Source: a virus (Duplodnaviria > Caudoviricetes). Taken from it: a stretch of DNA of 59,892 bases. The notes below the pieces were generated by a model, which was not told where the DNA came from, made no database searches, and saw only the letters and a list, made by a program, of their open reading frames with translations. Positions 55,432 through 59,158 of the stretch are shown here, in pieces. Location of the stretch: positions 1 to 59,892 of the IMG/VR virus record IMGVR_UViG_3300021085_000033. One strand, given 5' to 3'. Position numbers and translations under genes: made by a program. Every line of letters starts with the position of its first letter. Positions within the stretch are counted from its first letter, which is position 1.

Positions 55432-55599
55432 ATGAAACTTTACAAAAAAGGAATTTCGCTGAACGTTGCTGAGTTGAATGCTTTACAGCACATCCTTGAT
55501 TCAGGAATCCACAATGCTCAATCTATGGGTTGCAATCCTGACCGATACAACACGCTCCAATCTATTAAGAGCCGTTTAGATAGCGCTAGAGCCAAGTAG
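55432..55599 (+). CDS. Putative early hypothetical protein (55 aa)
   Basis: GCTTTATG leader; MKLYKKGISL... Confidence 0.7.
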   Translation: MKLYKKGISLNVAELNALQHILDSGIHNAQSMGCNPDRYNTLQSIKSRLDSARAK

Positions 55600-55649
55600 T
55601 TATACTGATGAGTCCTGATAGGACGAAACCCCTACGGGGGTCTATAACT
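55598..55649 (+). ncRNA. Type I hammerhead ribozyme (HH1)
   Basis: Stem I AGTTATA/TATAACT; CTGATGA; stem II GTCC-TGATA-GGAC; GAAA; stem III CCCC-TACG-GGGG; GTC cleavage triplet (cut after 55642). Confidence 0.95.
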
Positions 55650-55673
55650 TTTACTAATTAAATTAAATGCTTT

Positions 55674-55940
55674 ATGACTAATCAATTTAAAAACCGCAAA
55701 GCCAACTTTGTTGAGGAAATCACTTACACCATCGTAATGGTTCACAAGGGTTCTTCTTACACTGAAAGACTCACCTTTAAGGAGTTGTTCTTCTACAATG
55801 AAGATAAAGAAGACCGCGAGTTAGTATTCGCACTTAATGAGGAATTTGAAGACATCCTTAAAATGAAGCAGGGTGACCAAATGCCTGTTAGGGTTGTTAG
55901 AGACCTAGATGAGTACGGCGTAATTGAAAGAACGCACTAA
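55674..55940 (+). CDS. Putative early hypothetical protein
   Basis: ORF with conserved leader AATTAAATGCTTTATG. Confidence 0.75.
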   Translation: MTNQFKNRKANFVEEITYTIVMVHKGSSYTERLTFKELFFYNEDKEDRELVFALNEEFEDILKMKQGDQMPVRVVRDLDEYGVIERTH

Positions 55941-55954
55941 CACTAACCAATAGC

Positions 55955-56008
55955 ATCACCAACACCTCGCACTGAAATAAATGCGGGGTTTTGGTGGTAT
56001 AACTAATT
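55955..56008 (+). other. Intergenic long hairpin, motif CACCTCGC...TTTGGTGGTATAACTAATT (copy A)
   Basis: TCACCAA/TTGGTGG and ACCTCGCA/TGCGGGGT stems. Confidence 0.65.
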
Positions 56009-56022
56009 AAATTAAATGCTTT

Positions 56023-56361
56023 ATGAAATCAATCAATCCAACTGAAGACCTACTGAATCTGCACCGCCTAGATGCTACGATTCTAAATGCAAGTGATGAC
56101 TTCAAGAACGACCTAGGTCAGCGCATTACATTCTTTGAAGACCCTACCCTAGGTGAAGAGGGCTGTGTATGGGTATCGTTCCCTGAGCACAGCGTAGCGT
56201 TCCGTAGCGACTTCTATGAGACCGATGATATGACCTTAAAAACGGGCAGTGTATTCTCTTTCCTTGAGTGCGTTGAAAATAGATGGTCACCCGATGAAGA
56301 TATGGATTACGTACCTCGCCTAGTAGATGGTAAGATGCTCCTTAAATTTGATGCTGAATAG
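56023..56361 (+). CDS. Putative early hypothetical protein
   Basis: ORF with conserved leader. Confidence 0.75.
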   Translation: MKSINPTEDLLNLHRLDATILNASDDFKNDLGQRITFFEDPTLGEEGCVWVSFPEHSVAFRSDFYETDDMTLKTGSVFSFLECVENRWSPDEDMDYVPRLVDGKMLLKFDAE

Positions 56362-56362
56362 C

Positions 56363-56426
56363 AGTCCTCAGGGGGACTTTAAATAGGCTTTAGGCCCTGA
56401 GCGTGACCACTGCGGTGGTCGGTAGC
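56363..56426 (+). ncRNA. Pistol self-cleaving ribozyme
   Basis: P1 AGTCC/GGACT; loop TCAGGG forms a pseudoknot with CCCTGA; TTAAATAG; P2 GCT/AGC; GCG; P3 TGACCAC/GTGGTCG; GT cleavage dinucleotide 56422/56423. Confidence 0.92.
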
Positions 56427-56455
56427 AATAATGCTAAACTTAAATTAAATGCTTT

Positions 56456-56653
56456 ATGAAAAATGCAAAATTCATCACACCCGCTAACCCTAATTTCATT
56501 ACTCCTGAAGAAGCTAAAGAGCTACTGACCAATGTACGTGCTGACCTTGATAAACTCATTGCACTAGGTGAGAGCTACTACCACTTCCAATCGGCTCAGG
56601 CTACCCACAAATACCTGAAGAAGGCTAAGAATGCCTTAAAAGGGGTCAGCTAG
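56456..56653 (+). CDS. Putative early hypothetical protein
   Basis: ORF with conserved leader. Confidence 0.75.
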   Translation: MKNAKFITPANPNFITPEEAKELLTNVRADLDKLIALGESYYHFQSAQATHKYLKKAKNALKGVS

Positions 56654-56670
56654 TTAGCTGTAGACCTCAG

Positions 56671-56721
56671 CACCTCGCCTGACCTTGGAAACTTGGTCGG
56701 GCTTTGGTGGTATAACTAATT
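56671..56721 (+). other. Intergenic long hairpin, motif CACCTCGC...TTTGGTGGTATAACTAATT (copy B)
   Basis: CACC/GGTG and GCCTGACC/GGTCGGGC stems with a pyrimidine internal loop. Confidence 0.65.
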
Positions 56722-56731
56722 TAATAGTCTT

Positions 56732-56950
56732 ATGAAAAGAGCAACTAAACTAGAAAAGGGTCGTTACCAAATCACAATCAAAGGTCACGCTTACAGAATT
56801 GTAAAAGGCGGAAACCTGAATCCGGGATGGTGGATTTGGGAAGGTAAGAAATGTCAATGGAGAGGTAAAAGTAAATTCAATTGCGAGGTGTTTTTGAACT
56901 ACAGAAACCCGGCTTACCTTTCTTGTGATGTAAGGTATTTTCGCAACTAA
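56732..56950 (+). CDS. Putative early hypothetical protein
   Basis: ORF. Confidence 0.7.
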   Translation: MKRATKLEKGRYQITIKGHAYRIVKGGNLNPGWWIWEGKKCQWRGKSKFNCEVFLNYRNPAYLSCDVRYFRN

Positions 56951-56966
56951 TTTAATTTAACGCTTT

Positions 56967-57267: not shown

Positions 57268-57277
57268 CTAAAGCAAA

Positions 57278-57306
57278 TGAGGGTAAGACCTCAGCGTTCT
57301 TTGACA
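57278..57306 (+). promoter_or_regulatory. boxB/boxA-like antitermination site
   Basis: Hairpin TGAGG-GTAAGA-CCTCA followed by GTTCTTTGACA (boxA consensus GCTCTTTAACA). Confidence 0.6.
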
Positions 57307-57313
57307 TTATGGA

Positions 57314-57450
57314 AATTAAATCAGTCTGATGAGGCTAGGTCATTCACCTAGCTGTACCTACGGGTACGACCCCTGAGATGGGGCGAAACCACGTGATACG
57401 GGAAGCGTATTGGCTACGGCACTTCGGTGCTTGGTCACTGATAACTAATT
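57314..57450 (+). ncRNA. Branched type I hammerhead ribozyme (HH2)
   Basis: Stem I ATCAGT/ACTGAT; CTGATGA-G...C-GAAA core; three hairpins inserted in stem II; stem III CCA/TGG enclosing two hairpins; GTC triplet (cut after 57436). Confidence 0.82.
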
Positions 57451-57458
57451 AAATGCTT

Positions 57459-57605
57459 ATGATACACGACAAAAGAATATGCGTGAAAACATCTAGCGCT
57501 GACCTACGTGAGATGACTAGCATACAGCTAGACAAGTTGTATGAAGACCTGAGAGTTTTGCAATTTCAGGCGCAGTACGAACTGCTATCAAGAGGGGGCG
57601 AATGA
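57459..57605 (+). CDS. Putative early hypothetical protein (48 aa)
   Basis: AATTAAATGCTTATG leader; MIHDKRICVK... Confidence 0.6.
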   Translation: MIHDKRICVKTSSADLREMTSIQLDKLYEDLRVLQFQAQYELLSRGGE

Positions 57606-57640
57606 CCCCTCGGTTACTGATAACTTAAATTAATTGCTTT

Positions 57641-58003
57641 ATGAACAAACAAGATTTTGCTCAGCTGTTGGAGATGCACGATTGGTACTACGAACGTAGC
57701 GAAGACCCAAAGGTCTACAAAAGAGGTAGTGAACAGCGTAAAATGATCTTCAAAGCAAAAGCACAGCTAGGTGAGGATGGAGAATACCTTTACCTGAAGT
57801 ATGCTAAGCGCTACGAAGAGAATACCAATAGACCGATAGGCGCTCCAAGGAAAGAGCGCGTGTTTAAGGACATTATGTGTAAGTCTAATGGTAAGCTAGG
57901 CGTACTGATAGACAAGAGCCCAAACGGGTTTCTAGAGATTAAGTTCAAGGATGAGTACCGAACCCAATATCTACACCCTGACAAAGTGTTTATGCTAGAC
58001 TAG
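57641..58003 (+). CDS. Putative early hypothetical protein
   Basis: LLEMHDWYYERSED...YKRG motif. Confidence 0.75.
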   Translation: MNKQDFAQLLEMHDWYYERSEDPKVYKRGSEQRKMIFKAKAQLGEDGEYLYLKYAKRYEENTNRPIGAPRKERVFKDIMCKSNGKLGVLIDKSPNGFLEIKFKDEYRTQYLHPDKVFMLD

Positions 58004-58038
58004 GTCTAGCGGTTACTGATAACTTAAATTAATGCTTT

Positions 58039-58245
58039 ATGATAAGTAGAATGGAAATCCTGAAGAACGGCTACGTAATGATAGCTGAGAAACTAGACAG
58101 CGAAGATTTACACGGCGCTATGGCTATGGCTAAGGGACTAGGACTTATAGACCTAGTCAATGAGATAGGCGAACTTATGTACTGCGCTGATGATGAGTAC
58201 GAGCCATTTAGAAAAGGTTTAATCAAACACCTGATAGAGGAATGA
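58039..58245 (+). CDS. Putative early hypothetical protein
   Basis: ORF with conserved leader. Confidence 0.7.
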   Translation: MISRMEILKNGYVMIAEKLDSEDLHGAMAMAKGLGLIDLVNEIGELMYCADDEYEPFRKGLIKHLIEE

Positions 58246-58388
58246 GAAAATACACGATTGAAAACTATTACGGCGGTGAAAGAGATGATGAACTGCTGTA
58301 CGCGGACAGCTACAAAGAGGCTAGAAAACTACAAGGTGGTGAGTTCTCTTTGATTATTAATAACGTTACTAAAGTTGTAAGAGAATGA
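58242..58388 (+). CDS. Putative early hypothetical protein (48 aa)
   Basis: ATGA-coupled on both sides. Confidence 0.6.
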   Translation: MRKYTIENYYGGERDDELLYADSYKEARKLQGGEFSLIINNVTKVVRE

Positions 58389-58654
58389 CAAGTAGAGAAA
58401 AGATGTTGGAAATACTCGGAAAGTACTTTCCAATCACCGGAACAACTGAAGACTTTGATGGCTCCGAGGGAGGCATATGGATTTGTGGTGAGTGTGACTA
58501 CACTACCCCCAAAGGTATTCCTTACTTTAACTATTACGCCCACAGCAAGTCTTACGAATTCGGTGTGCTGAATAGCTTAACAAAGATTACCGATAAGCAC
58601 GGGTGGGGATTCCAATGGTATGACCCCGGAACGATAATGGTGTACCCTGATTAG
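58385..58654 (+). CDS. Putative early hypothetical protein
   Basis: ORF; GWGFQWYDPGT. Confidence 0.75.
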   Translation: MTSREKMLEILGKYFPITGTTEDFDGSEGGIWICGECDYTTPKGIPYFNYYAHSKSYEFGVLNSLTKITDKHGWGFQWYDPGTIMVYPD

Positions 58655-58689
58655 GGTCACCGGTTACTGATATCTTAAAACACTTTATT

Positions 58690-58962
58690 ATGCCTAAGAA
58701 ACATAGAAACCTTAACGGAGACCTATGCTACACGTTTGCGTGGGAGCAGGGTGGTGGTAATCACGTATATGCCTACAGCAAGAAAGCCGCAATTAGATTA
58801 GCCAAGAAAGTTGGCGCTGGGACACACGATAGACACGGGAAAAAATACAAAAAGACATATCCTCTTTCAGTGTTGACCCCTCAAGAAGAATCATTCCGCT
58901 CAGTATATCTAGAAGAATTGATGGAGTTTGATCGGAACCTGTACCTAGCGTACAGCCTATAA
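58690..58962 (+). CDS. Putative early hypothetical protein
   Basis: ORF; GGGNHVYA. Confidence 0.7.
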   Translation: MPKKHRNLNGDLCYTFAWEQGGGNHVYAYSKKAAIRLAKKVGAGTHDRHGKKYKKTYPLSVLTPQEESFRSVYLEELMEFDRNLYLAYSL

Positions 58963-58967
58963 TATAA

Positions 58968-59096
58968 AGTCGGAGCATAAGCAGTCCCGGAGGTCTTCGG
59001 GATAGAAGAGTATTCTGCCAATTCAATTCAATTTAAGGTCAAGGTGTGCTCCTAGCCCTAGCGGGTAGTAACATACACCAAAGATTACTAAAGACT
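58968..59096 (+). ncRNA. Unclassified multibranch structured RNA candidate
   Basis: AGTC/GACT, GGAGCAT/GTGCTCC, GCAG/CTGC, TCCCGGAG/CTTCGGGA, GCCC/GGGT and AGTAA/TTACT stems. Confidence 0.55.
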
Positions 59097-59158
59097 GACA
59101 GCAAGGAAAGACTTGCGGTTACTGATATTTTTAATTAACTTGGCTTAAAACATTTAAT

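What the first reader, a model, noticed from the sequence alone, without database searches (positions are those of the whole stretch)
55598..59127. Putative early gene array punctuated by self-cleaving ribozymes of two classes: a candidate RNA-only mRNA dicing system
Seen: almost every spacer between the small + strand genes holds a structured RNA. In order these are hammerhead HH1 (55598-649), hairpin A, a pistol (56363-426), hairpin B, a tRNA-like element, branched hammerhead HH2 (57314-450), four GGTTACTGAT sites and one unclassified multibranch RNA. Predicted cuts lie 31 (HH1), 33 (pistol) and 22 (HH2) nt upstream of the next ATG, just ahead of a shared A/T-rich translation leader. Established: hammerhead and pistol cleavage leaves 5'-OH and 2',3'-cyclic phosphate ends, and T7 processes its early polycistron with host RNase III. 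Inference: this phage cuts its early transcript into monocistronic mRNAs with exposed initiation regions and 5'-OH ends, using interchangeable processing modules.
Basis: partly seen in the sequence, partly recalled or inferred. Interest (0 to 1): 0.92.

Follow-up and report, generated by a model that had tools for sequence, protein, structure and literature searches.

The report
Ribozyme-punctuated phage operon with substrate-only cassettes
A marine phage separates its small early genes with self-cutting RNAs (a pistol and two kinds of hammerhead) and with short hairpin-plus-motif cassettes that look like spare cutting sites for one of those hammerheads, which would be a first if that ribozyme really cuts them in trans.

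Summary
The window (a whole ~60 kb marine crAss-related phage record) carries a pistol ribozyme (Rfam 54.9 bits, cut-off 34.5), a minimal type I hammerhead (29.7 bits, below the cut-off of 34, but core complete and relatives covary) and a large branched hammerhead that Rfam misses. I found the branched form in 39 distinct versions (95.9% of cells paired; 21 of 41 pairs changed on both sides).

The "GGTTACTGAT sites" are a real cassette: a variable RNA hairpin directly followed by GGUY/ACUGAU and a shared A/U-rich leader. That 10-mer is exactly the stem III, cleavage-site and stem I strand of the branched hammerhead. Only the nucleotide at the unpaired cleavage position varies (T/C/A, never G).

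Homologous genes in relatives are preceded by a pistol, a hammerhead, a cassette or nothing, so the modules are interchangeable.

Ribozymes flanking phage genes, and the idea that they dice polycistronic RNA, were published in 2011, so the general reading is not new and is still unproven here. What cuts the cassettes, if anything does, is open. Trans cleavage by the released hammerhead fragment is my preferred but unproven reading. Promoter/stem-loop cassettes and a protein reader are live rivals. This scan has noted ribozyme-punctuated phage operons before on other DNA.

The parts
55374..55404 (+). Candidate host-type (Bacteroidota-style TTG-N..-TAnnTTTG) promoter at the head of the first small-gene operon
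   Evidence: Regex scan. One of only two intergenic, correctly oriented matches in the window. The consensus is recalled, not tested.
55598..55649 (+). HH1, minimal type I hammerhead; predicted cut after C55642
   Evidence: 7 unique HH1-type variants in relatives, with compensatory changes in stems I, II and III.
55957..55997 (+). Hairpin A: outer CACC/GGUG stem plus inner GC stem followed by UUUU; terminator-like; followed by UAUAACU leader
   Evidence: z -5.75. Found only in the window and L150.
56363..56427 (+). Pistol ribozyme; predicted cut between G56422 and U56423
   Evidence: 9 copies in the clade, with covarying pseudoknot and P3.
56671..56710 (+). Hairpin B, paralogue of hairpin A (same flanks, different inner stem)
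   Evidence: z -4.71.
57128..57172 (+).
57278..57308 (+).
   Evidence: Conserved in all 9 contigs in my alignment. Function not tested.
57320..57442 (+). HH2, branched type I hammerhead. Stem I is AUCAGU/ACUGAU. A G-C pair closes a 4-way junction of three hairpins in place of stem II. Stem III (ACCA/UGGU) encloses hairpins IIIa and IIIb. Predicted cut after C57436.
57592..57621 (+). Cassette 1: hairpin 57592-57611 plus GGUUACUGAU 57612-57621 (implied cut after U57615)
57994..58020 (+). Cassette 2: hairpin 57994-58010 plus 10-mer 58011-58020 (implied cut after U58014)
58639..58671 (+). Cassette 3: hairpin 58639-58661 plus 10-mer 58662-58671 (implied cut after U58665)
58963..59126 (+). Unclassified conserved structured spacer ending in cassette 4 (hairpin 59101-59116 plus 10-mer 59117-59126)
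   Evidence: No Rfam match.
59544..59576 (+). Long hairpin with U-runs after the last small gene: terminator-like end of the cassette operon
   Evidence: Read from the sequence. Not picked up by the simple scan.
59832..59841 (+). Fifth GGTTACTGAT, without hairpin or leader, inside a highly conserved non-coding region (same site as 71-80)

Best explanation
The stretch holds two small-gene operons of a marine crAss-related phage. Their long transcripts are most likely cut into single-gene messages at the 5' edge of a shared A/U-rich leader (AACU(U/A)AAUUAAAU..AUG).

In the first operon the cutting elements are cis-acting ribozymes: HH1 and a pistol. Two terminator-like hairpins lie between them.

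The second operon starts with a conserved leader and the branched hammerhead HH2. Every later spacer carries a 'substrate-only' cassette: an RNA hairpin of free sequence directly followed by GGUY/ACUGAU. This is precisely the part of HH2 downstream of its variable linker, that is hairpin IIIb, the 3' strand of stem III, the cleavage nucleotide and the 3' strand of stem I.

My preferred mechanism for the cassettes is that HH2 cuts itself off the nascent RNA and its 5' fragment, which carries the whole catalytic core and a free AUCAGU arm, then pairs with each cassette and cuts after Y. That would leave upstream messages ending in a protective hairpin and downstream messages starting with a 5'-OH leader.

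Shown: the motifs, their structures, covariation, positions and interchangeability. Inferred: every cleavage event, the polycistronic transcripts, and above all the trans step.
For: - Ribozyme identity: pistol above the Rfam cut-off. HH1 has a complete core and 7 unique relatives with compensatory changes. HH2 has 39 distinct sequences, 95.9% of cells paired against 33-39% when slid, 21 of 41 pairs changed on both sides, and 0 of 500 shuffles reach the covariation score.
- All predicted cuts fall just 5' of one common leader.
- Cassettes: of 54 unique ones in 9 viral contigs, 50 have a stem of 5 or more bp, against 6.4% of 3000 control positions. The stem ends exactly at GG in 49 of 53, and there are 36 distinct stems.
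- Stem mismatches are G.T 9, A.C 0, other 5, with 344 Watson-Crick pairs, so the hairpin works on the + (RNA-sense) strand. No U-tract follows it.
- Within the 10-mer only position 4, the unpaired H17 of a hammerhead substrate, varies: T45, C8, A1, G0 of 54.
- HH2 is the first cassette of the array in 8 of 8 contigs that show the array.
- Interchangeability: the gene family of window ORF 56456 is preceded by pistol (window), HH2 (L151), cassette (L185, L017) or leader only (L150, L153, L032). The family of ORF 55674 is preceded by HH1 or cassette. The family of ORF 56732 is preceded by hairpin B or HH3.
- Feasibility: cofolding the HH2 5' product with cassettes gives a trans-hammerhead geometry as MFE in 4 of 4 window cassettes and 33 of 55 in the clade, against 0 of 55 with the 10-mer shuffled. 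This follows from complementarity and is not independent evidence.
- Operon shape: one host-type promoter match at the head of unit 1, and a terminator-like hairpin only after the last gene of unit 2.
Against: - No cleavage or transcript end was observed. The RNA runs that hold the phage are kept as short contigs and show no ends.
- Stems I and III and the G10.1-C11.1 pair of HH2 never vary, so the catalytic helices themselves have no covariation support.
- HH2's stem II is a single pair closing a 4-way junction, which is untested for activity.
- The window HH2 MFE pairs its UGGUC tail with the linker instead of forming stem III.
- A trans complex would have only 3 bp in stem III and mostly a GUU triplet. 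Mean predicted binding gain is modest (-7.0 against -4.9 kcal/mol for shuffled controls).
- No natural trans-cleaving hammerhead is known to me (recalled), and my search found none for phages.
- No arm/target covariation. The arm is AUCAGU or AUCGGU while the target stays ACUGAU in all 39. The ACCGA variants do not track the arm cleanly, since L153 has an A-arm and GGTTACCGA.
- More distant relatives put promoter-like tripartite repeats, with a GATAAT box resembling TGATAAC, before each small gene.
- HH1 is under the Rfam gathering score.
Confidence: 0.5

Rival explanations
1. The cassettes are PeSL-like regulatory modules. A stem-loop ends or stabilises the upstream message, and the conserved GGTTACTGATAACTTAA is a phage-specific promoter that starts the next one. 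HH2 merely sits on the first such module and trims read-through RNA. The cis ribozymes do the same job where no promoter is present.
For: - PeSLs (composite stem-loop plus early promoter, mediating gene shuffling) are documented in T4-type phages (PMC4122927, passages read).
- The same mosaic shuffling is seen here.
- More distant relatives have promoter-like tripartite repeats, TTACAAA..ACACGA..GGATAATATA, before most small genes, and TGATAAC resembles their GATAAT box.
- The 17-mer is conserved beyond the 10 nt that pair with HH2.
Against: - No sigma-70-type promoter at any cassette. Such matches are not enriched in the region: 11 found against 11.3 expected.
- No TAnnTTTG host-type match at cassettes.
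- The AACUUAA part is the leader shared with all ribozyme spacers, so only the 10-mer is cassette-specific.
- Variation confined to the H17 position would be a coincidence.
- The hairpin asymmetry (G.T 9, A.C 0) shows it is read as + strand RNA, and it has no U-tract.
- For the related crAss-like phage phi14:2, early transcripts made by the virion polymerase showed no common upstream motif (10.1101/2020.03.07.982082, passages read).
Confidence: 0.2
2. The cassettes are read by a protein: either a sequence-specific endoribonuclease (in the manner of T4 RegB) or a translational repressor (in the manner of T4 RegA) that recognises hairpin plus GGUYACUGAU. HH2 is an RNA solution at one spacer for what a protein does at the others.
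For: - A strictly conserved 10-17-mer beside a free-sequence hairpin, at a fixed distance from start codons.
- Interchangeability with cis ribozymes fits any cutting agent.
- The RegB and RegA precedents are recalled, not looked up.
Against: - It gives no reason why the HH2 arms are complementary to exactly the cassette-specific 10 nt, or why hairpin IIIb sits where the cassette hairpin sits.
- No candidate protein was identified.
Confidence: 0.15
3. The spacers are mainly recombination junctions or selfish modules. Ribozymes and cassettes spread and stay alike by gene conversion during modular shuffling, and cleavage, if any, has no role in expression.
For: - Relatives share spacers while the genes between them differ (contig pieces).
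- Two cassettes lie in tandem with no gene between them in L151.
- Two HH2 copies lie within 2.7 kb in L261.
Against: - Compensatory changes in all peripheral helices of HH2, HH1, HH3 and the pistol show selection on RNA structure rather than just sequence homogenisation.
- The constant placement at the leader edge argues the same way.
Confidence: 0.1

Closest known systems
Multiple hammerhead ribozymes flanking genes in prophages and phages (Perreault et al. 2011, PMC3088659; passages read)
   Same: Several self-cleaving ribozymes flank single genes or short gene blocks on one strand. The authors proposed processing of long phage transcripts into single-gene mRNAs and showed cleavage of ~2 kb polycistronic RNAs in vitro. 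A halovirus hammerhead lies 13 nt before an early start codon.
   Different: Here four ribozyme designs (pistol, HH1, HH2, and HH3 in relatives) and substrate-only cassettes alternate at equivalent positions. All precede one shared leader. HH2 has branched stems II and III, which Rfam models do not find.
Pistol ribozyme family, Rfam RF02679 (Harris et al. 2015, PMC4604425; abstract seen in listing)
   Same: Full-length match to the model, with P1, pseudoknot, P2, P3 and the GU junction. 9 copies in the clade.
   Different: Nothing structural. The context adds a defined position, 33 nt before a start codon, in a phage operon.
PeSL cassettes of T4-type phages (PMC2839356 in listing; PMC4122927 passages read)
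   Same: Short conserved stem-loop-plus-motif modules before small, shuffled, mostly unknown early genes. The same mosaicism between relatives.
   Different: PeSLs carry recognisable sigma-70-like -35/-10 boxes; these cassettes do not. The conserved part here equals a hammerhead substrate strand.
[quoted passage not shown]
   Same: An enzyme strand with arms complementary to a substrate N-U-H site. HH2 opened at its linker has this layout.
   Different: It would be natural, multi-target, and released by self-cleavage. Stem III would be only 3 bp, stacked on a substrate hairpin. None of this is shown.
T7 early mRNA processing by host RNase III (recalled)
   Same: An early polycistron cut between genes, leaving 3' hairpins.
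   Different: RNase III sites are long irregular duplexes. Stems here are 5-10 bp, and the cutters would be RNAs.

Membership tests
Pistol ribozyme (RF02679) | Score at or above Rfam gathering threshold over the full model | tested here: met
   54.9 bits against 34.5, model positions 1-68 of 68.
Pistol ribozyme (RF02679) | Pseudoknot between P1 loop and the internal hairpin loop, P3 helix, and GU at the junction | tested here: met
   CUCAGGG/CCCUGAG in the window. Three different covarying pseudoknot pairs and two P3 versions among 9 copies. GU at 56422-56423.
Pistol ribozyme (RF02679) | Self-cleavage in Mg2+ | not testable with these tools
   Needs in vitro transcription.
Hammerhead type I (RF00163): HH1 | Conserved core CUGAUGA .. 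GAAA .. UH, with three helices and stem I open | tested here: met
   7 unique variants keep all three stems through changes on both sides.
Hammerhead type I (RF00163): HH1 | Rfam gathering score | tested here: not met
   29.7 bits against 34. One clade copy in L242 reaches 34.9.
Hammerhead type I: HH2 (branched) | Core nucleotides, A15.1-U16.1, H17, and stems I and III | tested here: met
   Invariant in 39 distinct sequences. Stem I changes only A-U to G.U (7 of 39).
Hammerhead type I: HH2 (branched) | A regular stem II helix, and a match to an Rfam hammerhead model | tested here: not met
   Stem II is one G-C pair closing three hairpins. No Rfam hit at E<=10. I therefore file it as a hammerhead-like variant whose activity is untested.
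PeSL (promoter-early stem-loop) | Stem-loop joined to a recognisable host promoter (-35 N17 -10) | tested here: not met
   No such match at the cassettes. A phage-specific promoter cannot be excluded.
Trans-cleaving hammerhead/substrate pair | Substrate N-U-H flanked by sequences complementary to both enzyme arms | tested here: met
   GGU and ACUGAU pair with ACC and AUCAGU. H is U, C or A, never G.
Trans-cleaving hammerhead/substrate pair | Cleavage of the separate substrate | not testable with these tools
   Needs a two-RNA assay.
tRNA (for the 'tRNA-like element') | Cloverleaf recognised by ARAGORN or Rfam | tested here: not met
   0 genes. No RF00005 hit in the window.

The most novel reading that the evidence does not exclude
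The branched hammerhead is a natural multi-target, trans-acting ribozyme. After cutting itself free at the first cassette, its 5' fragment recognises every 'hairpin + GGUY/ACUGAU' cassette of the operon (4-13 per genome) by its two arms. The cassette hairpin takes the place of hairpin IIIb, and the fragment cuts after Y. One RNA enzyme would then process a whole phage operon. That would explain why only the unpaired H17 position of the 10-mer is free to vary, and why the arm may drift only to a wobble-compatible G.
Probability: 0.3. Interest if true: 0.9.

Novelty: new variant of a known kind. Interest (0 to 1): 0.64.

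Why it matters
What self-cleaving ribozymes do in bacteria and phages is still largely open (review PMC6765202, passages read). This clade offers an unusually clean natural experiment. The same genes are served by a pistol, by three hammerhead designs, by a substrate-only cassette or by nothing. All of these sit in front of one leader, in dozens of closely related marine phage genomes.

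It also supplies a new branched hammerhead architecture that standard models miss. And it gives a concrete test of whether a hammerhead can act in trans in nature, needing only two in vitro RNAs. If the trans reading fails, the cassettes remain a well-defined RNA-level signal whose reader (a promoter-specific polymerase or a protein) is worth finding in the crAss-related phages.

Tried and rejected
- blastn of the region against the phage collection found no match.
- The 14-nt pattern for hairpins A/B returned 117 unspecific stretches and was useless. Hairpins A/B were then found only in the window and L150.
- The gapped HH2 pattern on viral contigs returned 41 stretches. Only the 9 already-known clade members were real. 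The other 32 loci were coding chance matches, judged by eye.
- Rfam on 10 more distant relatives gave no ribozyme, only one tRNA.
- RNA sequencing runs: 4 runs laid, all kept as contigs, short and sparse. They show no transcript ends, so they say nothing about cleavage.
- Arm/target covariation as a test of trans pairing: none usable.
- The idea that HH2 hides its own product tail by extending hairpin IIIb is weak. The MFE never keeps cis stem III (0 of 30), but a 3-4 bp helix would rarely be predicted anyway. By contiguous extension, 9 of 16 own cassettes absorb one nucleotide against 19 of 130 others, and these are related sequences.
- An N4-type DNA hairpin promoter on the template strand is rejected because stem wobbles are G.T 9 and A.C 0 on the + strand.
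- RNase III sites are rejected because the stems are 5-10 bp.
- RNase Z and Cas6-like processing were considered from memory and rejected (stems too short; hairpin sequence not conserved).
- tRNA is rejected.
- The 2707-aa protein gave no Pfam, PHROG or PDB sequence match, so I could not show that it is a virion RNA polymerase.
- My exact terminal-overlap test found nothing. The repeat was read by eye.
- Supplements were closed. The promoter logos and lists of the phi14:2 paper, and Figures S1-S3 of Perreault 2011, were not seen and may bear on the promoter rival and on precedents.
- Literature: searches found no paper describing substrate-only hammerhead cassettes or a natural trans-cleaving phage hammerhead. 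The library lacks most subscription journals.

Full report
**What the window is.** The window is a complete IMG/VR virus record of 59,892 nt. Its last ~125 nt repeat its first ~131 nt (read). One protein matches the crAss muzzle family. The portal and terminase match PHROGs, and an Erf-like annealing protein and an exonuclease follow the region of interest on the + strand. Public runs that hold the phage are marine. The finding covers a run of small + strand genes lying opposite the structural block.

**The ribozymes are real as motifs.**
- Rfam finds a pistol at 56363-56427 (54.9 bits, cut-off 34.5). Its junction GU is at 56422/56423, 33 nt before the next ATG.
- The permissive scan gives Hammerhead_1 at 55599-55648 with 29.7 bits, below the cut-off of 34. 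The core is complete, and the MFE is the three-stem hammerhead.
- The large element at 57320-57442 gets no Rfam hit at all. It reads AUCAGU-CUGAUGA-G-[three hairpins]-C-GAAA-CCA-[two hairpins]-UGG-UC/ACUGAU.
- By pattern and model searches I found this element in 9 viral contigs and in 46 metagenome stretches.
- Over 39 distinct sequences, 95.9% of cells pair, against 33-39% when partners are slid. 21 of 41 pairs change on both sides, and no shuffle of 500 reaches the covariation score. That alignment was fitted to the model, which leans towards the structure.
- The covariation lies in the five peripheral hairpins. Stems I and III and the G-C pair that stands for stem II never vary, so the catalytic helices rest only on their fit to the hammerhead rules.
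- Small hammerheads of two designs occur across the clade, all with compensatory changes in their stems: HH1-type with 7 unique variants, and HH3-type (absent from the window) with 10.
- Pistols occur in 9 places, with covarying pseudoknot and P3.

**The other elements.**
- Hairpins A and B are stable (z -5.75 and -4.71). Each is a GC stem followed by a U-run, so they look like weak terminators. They occur only in the window and its closest relative.
- The 'tRNA-like' element is not a tRNA. It is a small Y-shaped fold conserved in 5 of 9 contigs.
- The multibranch spacer is conserved in 4 contigs, but its structure has little support.
- Of 13 gene junctions, 9 hold an element.

**The GGTTACTGAT sites are a cassette.** A collection scan with the motif brought in relatives with 3-13 copies each.
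- Among 54 unique cassettes from 9 contigs, 50 have a hairpin of 5 or more bp, against 6.4% of control positions.
- In 49 of 53 the stem ends exactly at the GG.
- There are 36 different stems.
- Treating G.T and A.C mismatches alike, stems hold 9 G.T and 0 A.C. The hairpin is therefore selected on the + strand, that is in the RNA.
- No U-run follows.
- After the 10-mer comes AACUUAA.., which is also the leader behind every cis ribozyme and behind spacers with no module at all. Only hairpin plus GGUYACUGAU is therefore cassette-specific.
- That 10-mer is the 3' strand of HH2's stem III (GGU), its cleavage nucleotide (Y) and the 3' strand of its stem I (ACUGAU). The cassette hairpin sits where HH2's hairpin IIIb sits.
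- Within the 10-mer only the cleavage nucleotide varies: T45, C8, A1, G0 of 54. My filter fixed positions 1-3 and 5-6 and allowed 4 mismatches in 17.
- HH2 is the first cassette of the array in 8 of 8 contigs that show the array.

**Interchangeability.** I clustered the small proteins of 9 contigs and labelled what lies upstream of each. Of 50 families with two or more members, 19 have more than one upstream type.
- The family of window ORF 56456 has a pistol (window), HH2 (L151), a cassette (L185, L017) or only the leader (L150, L153, L032).
- The family of ORF 55674 has HH1 or a cassette.
- The family of ORF 56732 has hairpin B or HH3.

It also shows the mosaic shuffling known from PeSL cassettes.

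**Operon shape.**
- A host-type promoter match lies at 55374-55404, before the first small gene. It is one of only two intergenic matches in the window (the consensus is recalled).
- HH2 is preceded in all 9 contigs by a conserved non-coding leader.
- A long U-flanked hairpin follows the last small gene.
- Sigma-70-like promoters are not enriched, and none lies at a cassette.

**What cuts the cassettes?** This is not shown. Cofolding the HH2 5' product with cassettes gives the trans-hammerhead geometry as the best structure for 4 of 4 window cassettes. In the clade the figure is 33 of 55, and 0 of 55 with shuffled 10-mers. The predicted gain is small (-7.0 against -4.9 kcal/mol), and the result follows from complementarity.

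Against the trans reading:
- The trans stem III would be only 3 bp.
- The triplet is mostly GUU.
- The enzyme's own product strand stays tethered.
- No arm/target covariation exists.
- No natural precedent is known.

More distant relatives lack ribozymes and instead have promoter-like tripartite repeats before each small gene. This keeps a promoter reading of the cassettes alive. On the other hand, the phi14:2 study found no common motif before early transcripts.

**What is known.** Perreault et al. 2011 described multiple hammerheads flanking genes in prophages. They proposed processing into single-gene mRNAs and showed cleavage of polycistronic RNAs in vitro. A 2019 review repeats the idea and stresses that function is unsettled. 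Earlier notes of this scan report similar ribozyme-punctuated phage operons on other DNA, and a relative of this phage carries the same one-core, many-sites reading. Those are unchecked first-reader notes, not support.

**Verdict.** The general interpretation is plausible but already published in kind and unproven here. The new content is threefold:
- the branched hammerhead family;
- the substrate-only cassettes;
- the module swapping.

A natural trans-acting hammerhead is the boldest reading that the data allow. I give it about 0.3.

Noticed in passing
window 59640-59892 continuing at 132-400: Non-coding region of ~600 nt that is more conserved among 4 contigs than the neighbouring genes. 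It begins with a TAnnTTTG-type box (TATATTTG) and holds a long hairpin ending in a U-run, so it is a candidate abundant early ncRNA. The phi14:2 paper reports highly transcribed early intergenic regions.
   Followed up: partly
window 57278-57308: Hairpin plus GCGUUCUUUGACAUU before HH2, conserved in all 9 contigs. I only checked conservation.
   Followed up: partly
L151 3489-3803: An HH1-type hammerhead lies directly upstream of the HH2 leader with no gene between them. The two cuts would excise a discrete RNA of roughly 225 nt carrying the HH2 core.
   Followed up: no
L151 6535-6649; L261: Two cassettes lie in tandem about 80 nt apart with no ORF between them. Two complete HH2 copies lie within one 2.7 kb contig.
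   Followed up: no
L155, L162, L168, L169, L173, L174, L179: More distant relatives carry 3-6 copies of a tripartite repeat, TTACAAA..ACACGA..N9-10..GGATAATATA, some 20-35 nt before small-gene starts. It is promoter-like, and there are no ribozymes.
   Followed up: partly
window 10673-18796 (-): A 2707-aa ORF with no Pfam, PHROG or PDB sequence match. Its size and position recall virion RNA polymerases of crAss-like phages, but that is not shown.
   Followed up: partly
window leaders, e.g. 55667-55676, 57453-57461: Many leaders hold two ATGs 6 or 7 nt apart (AATGCTT(T)ATG). They are sometimes in frame (MLM.., MTM.. starts) and sometimes make a tiny out-of-frame ORF.
   Followed up: no
window 55300-59700 against run contigs: Contigs of relatives share the ribozyme spacers and leaders but carry different genes between them, which is mosaicism at the spacers.
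   Followed up: partly
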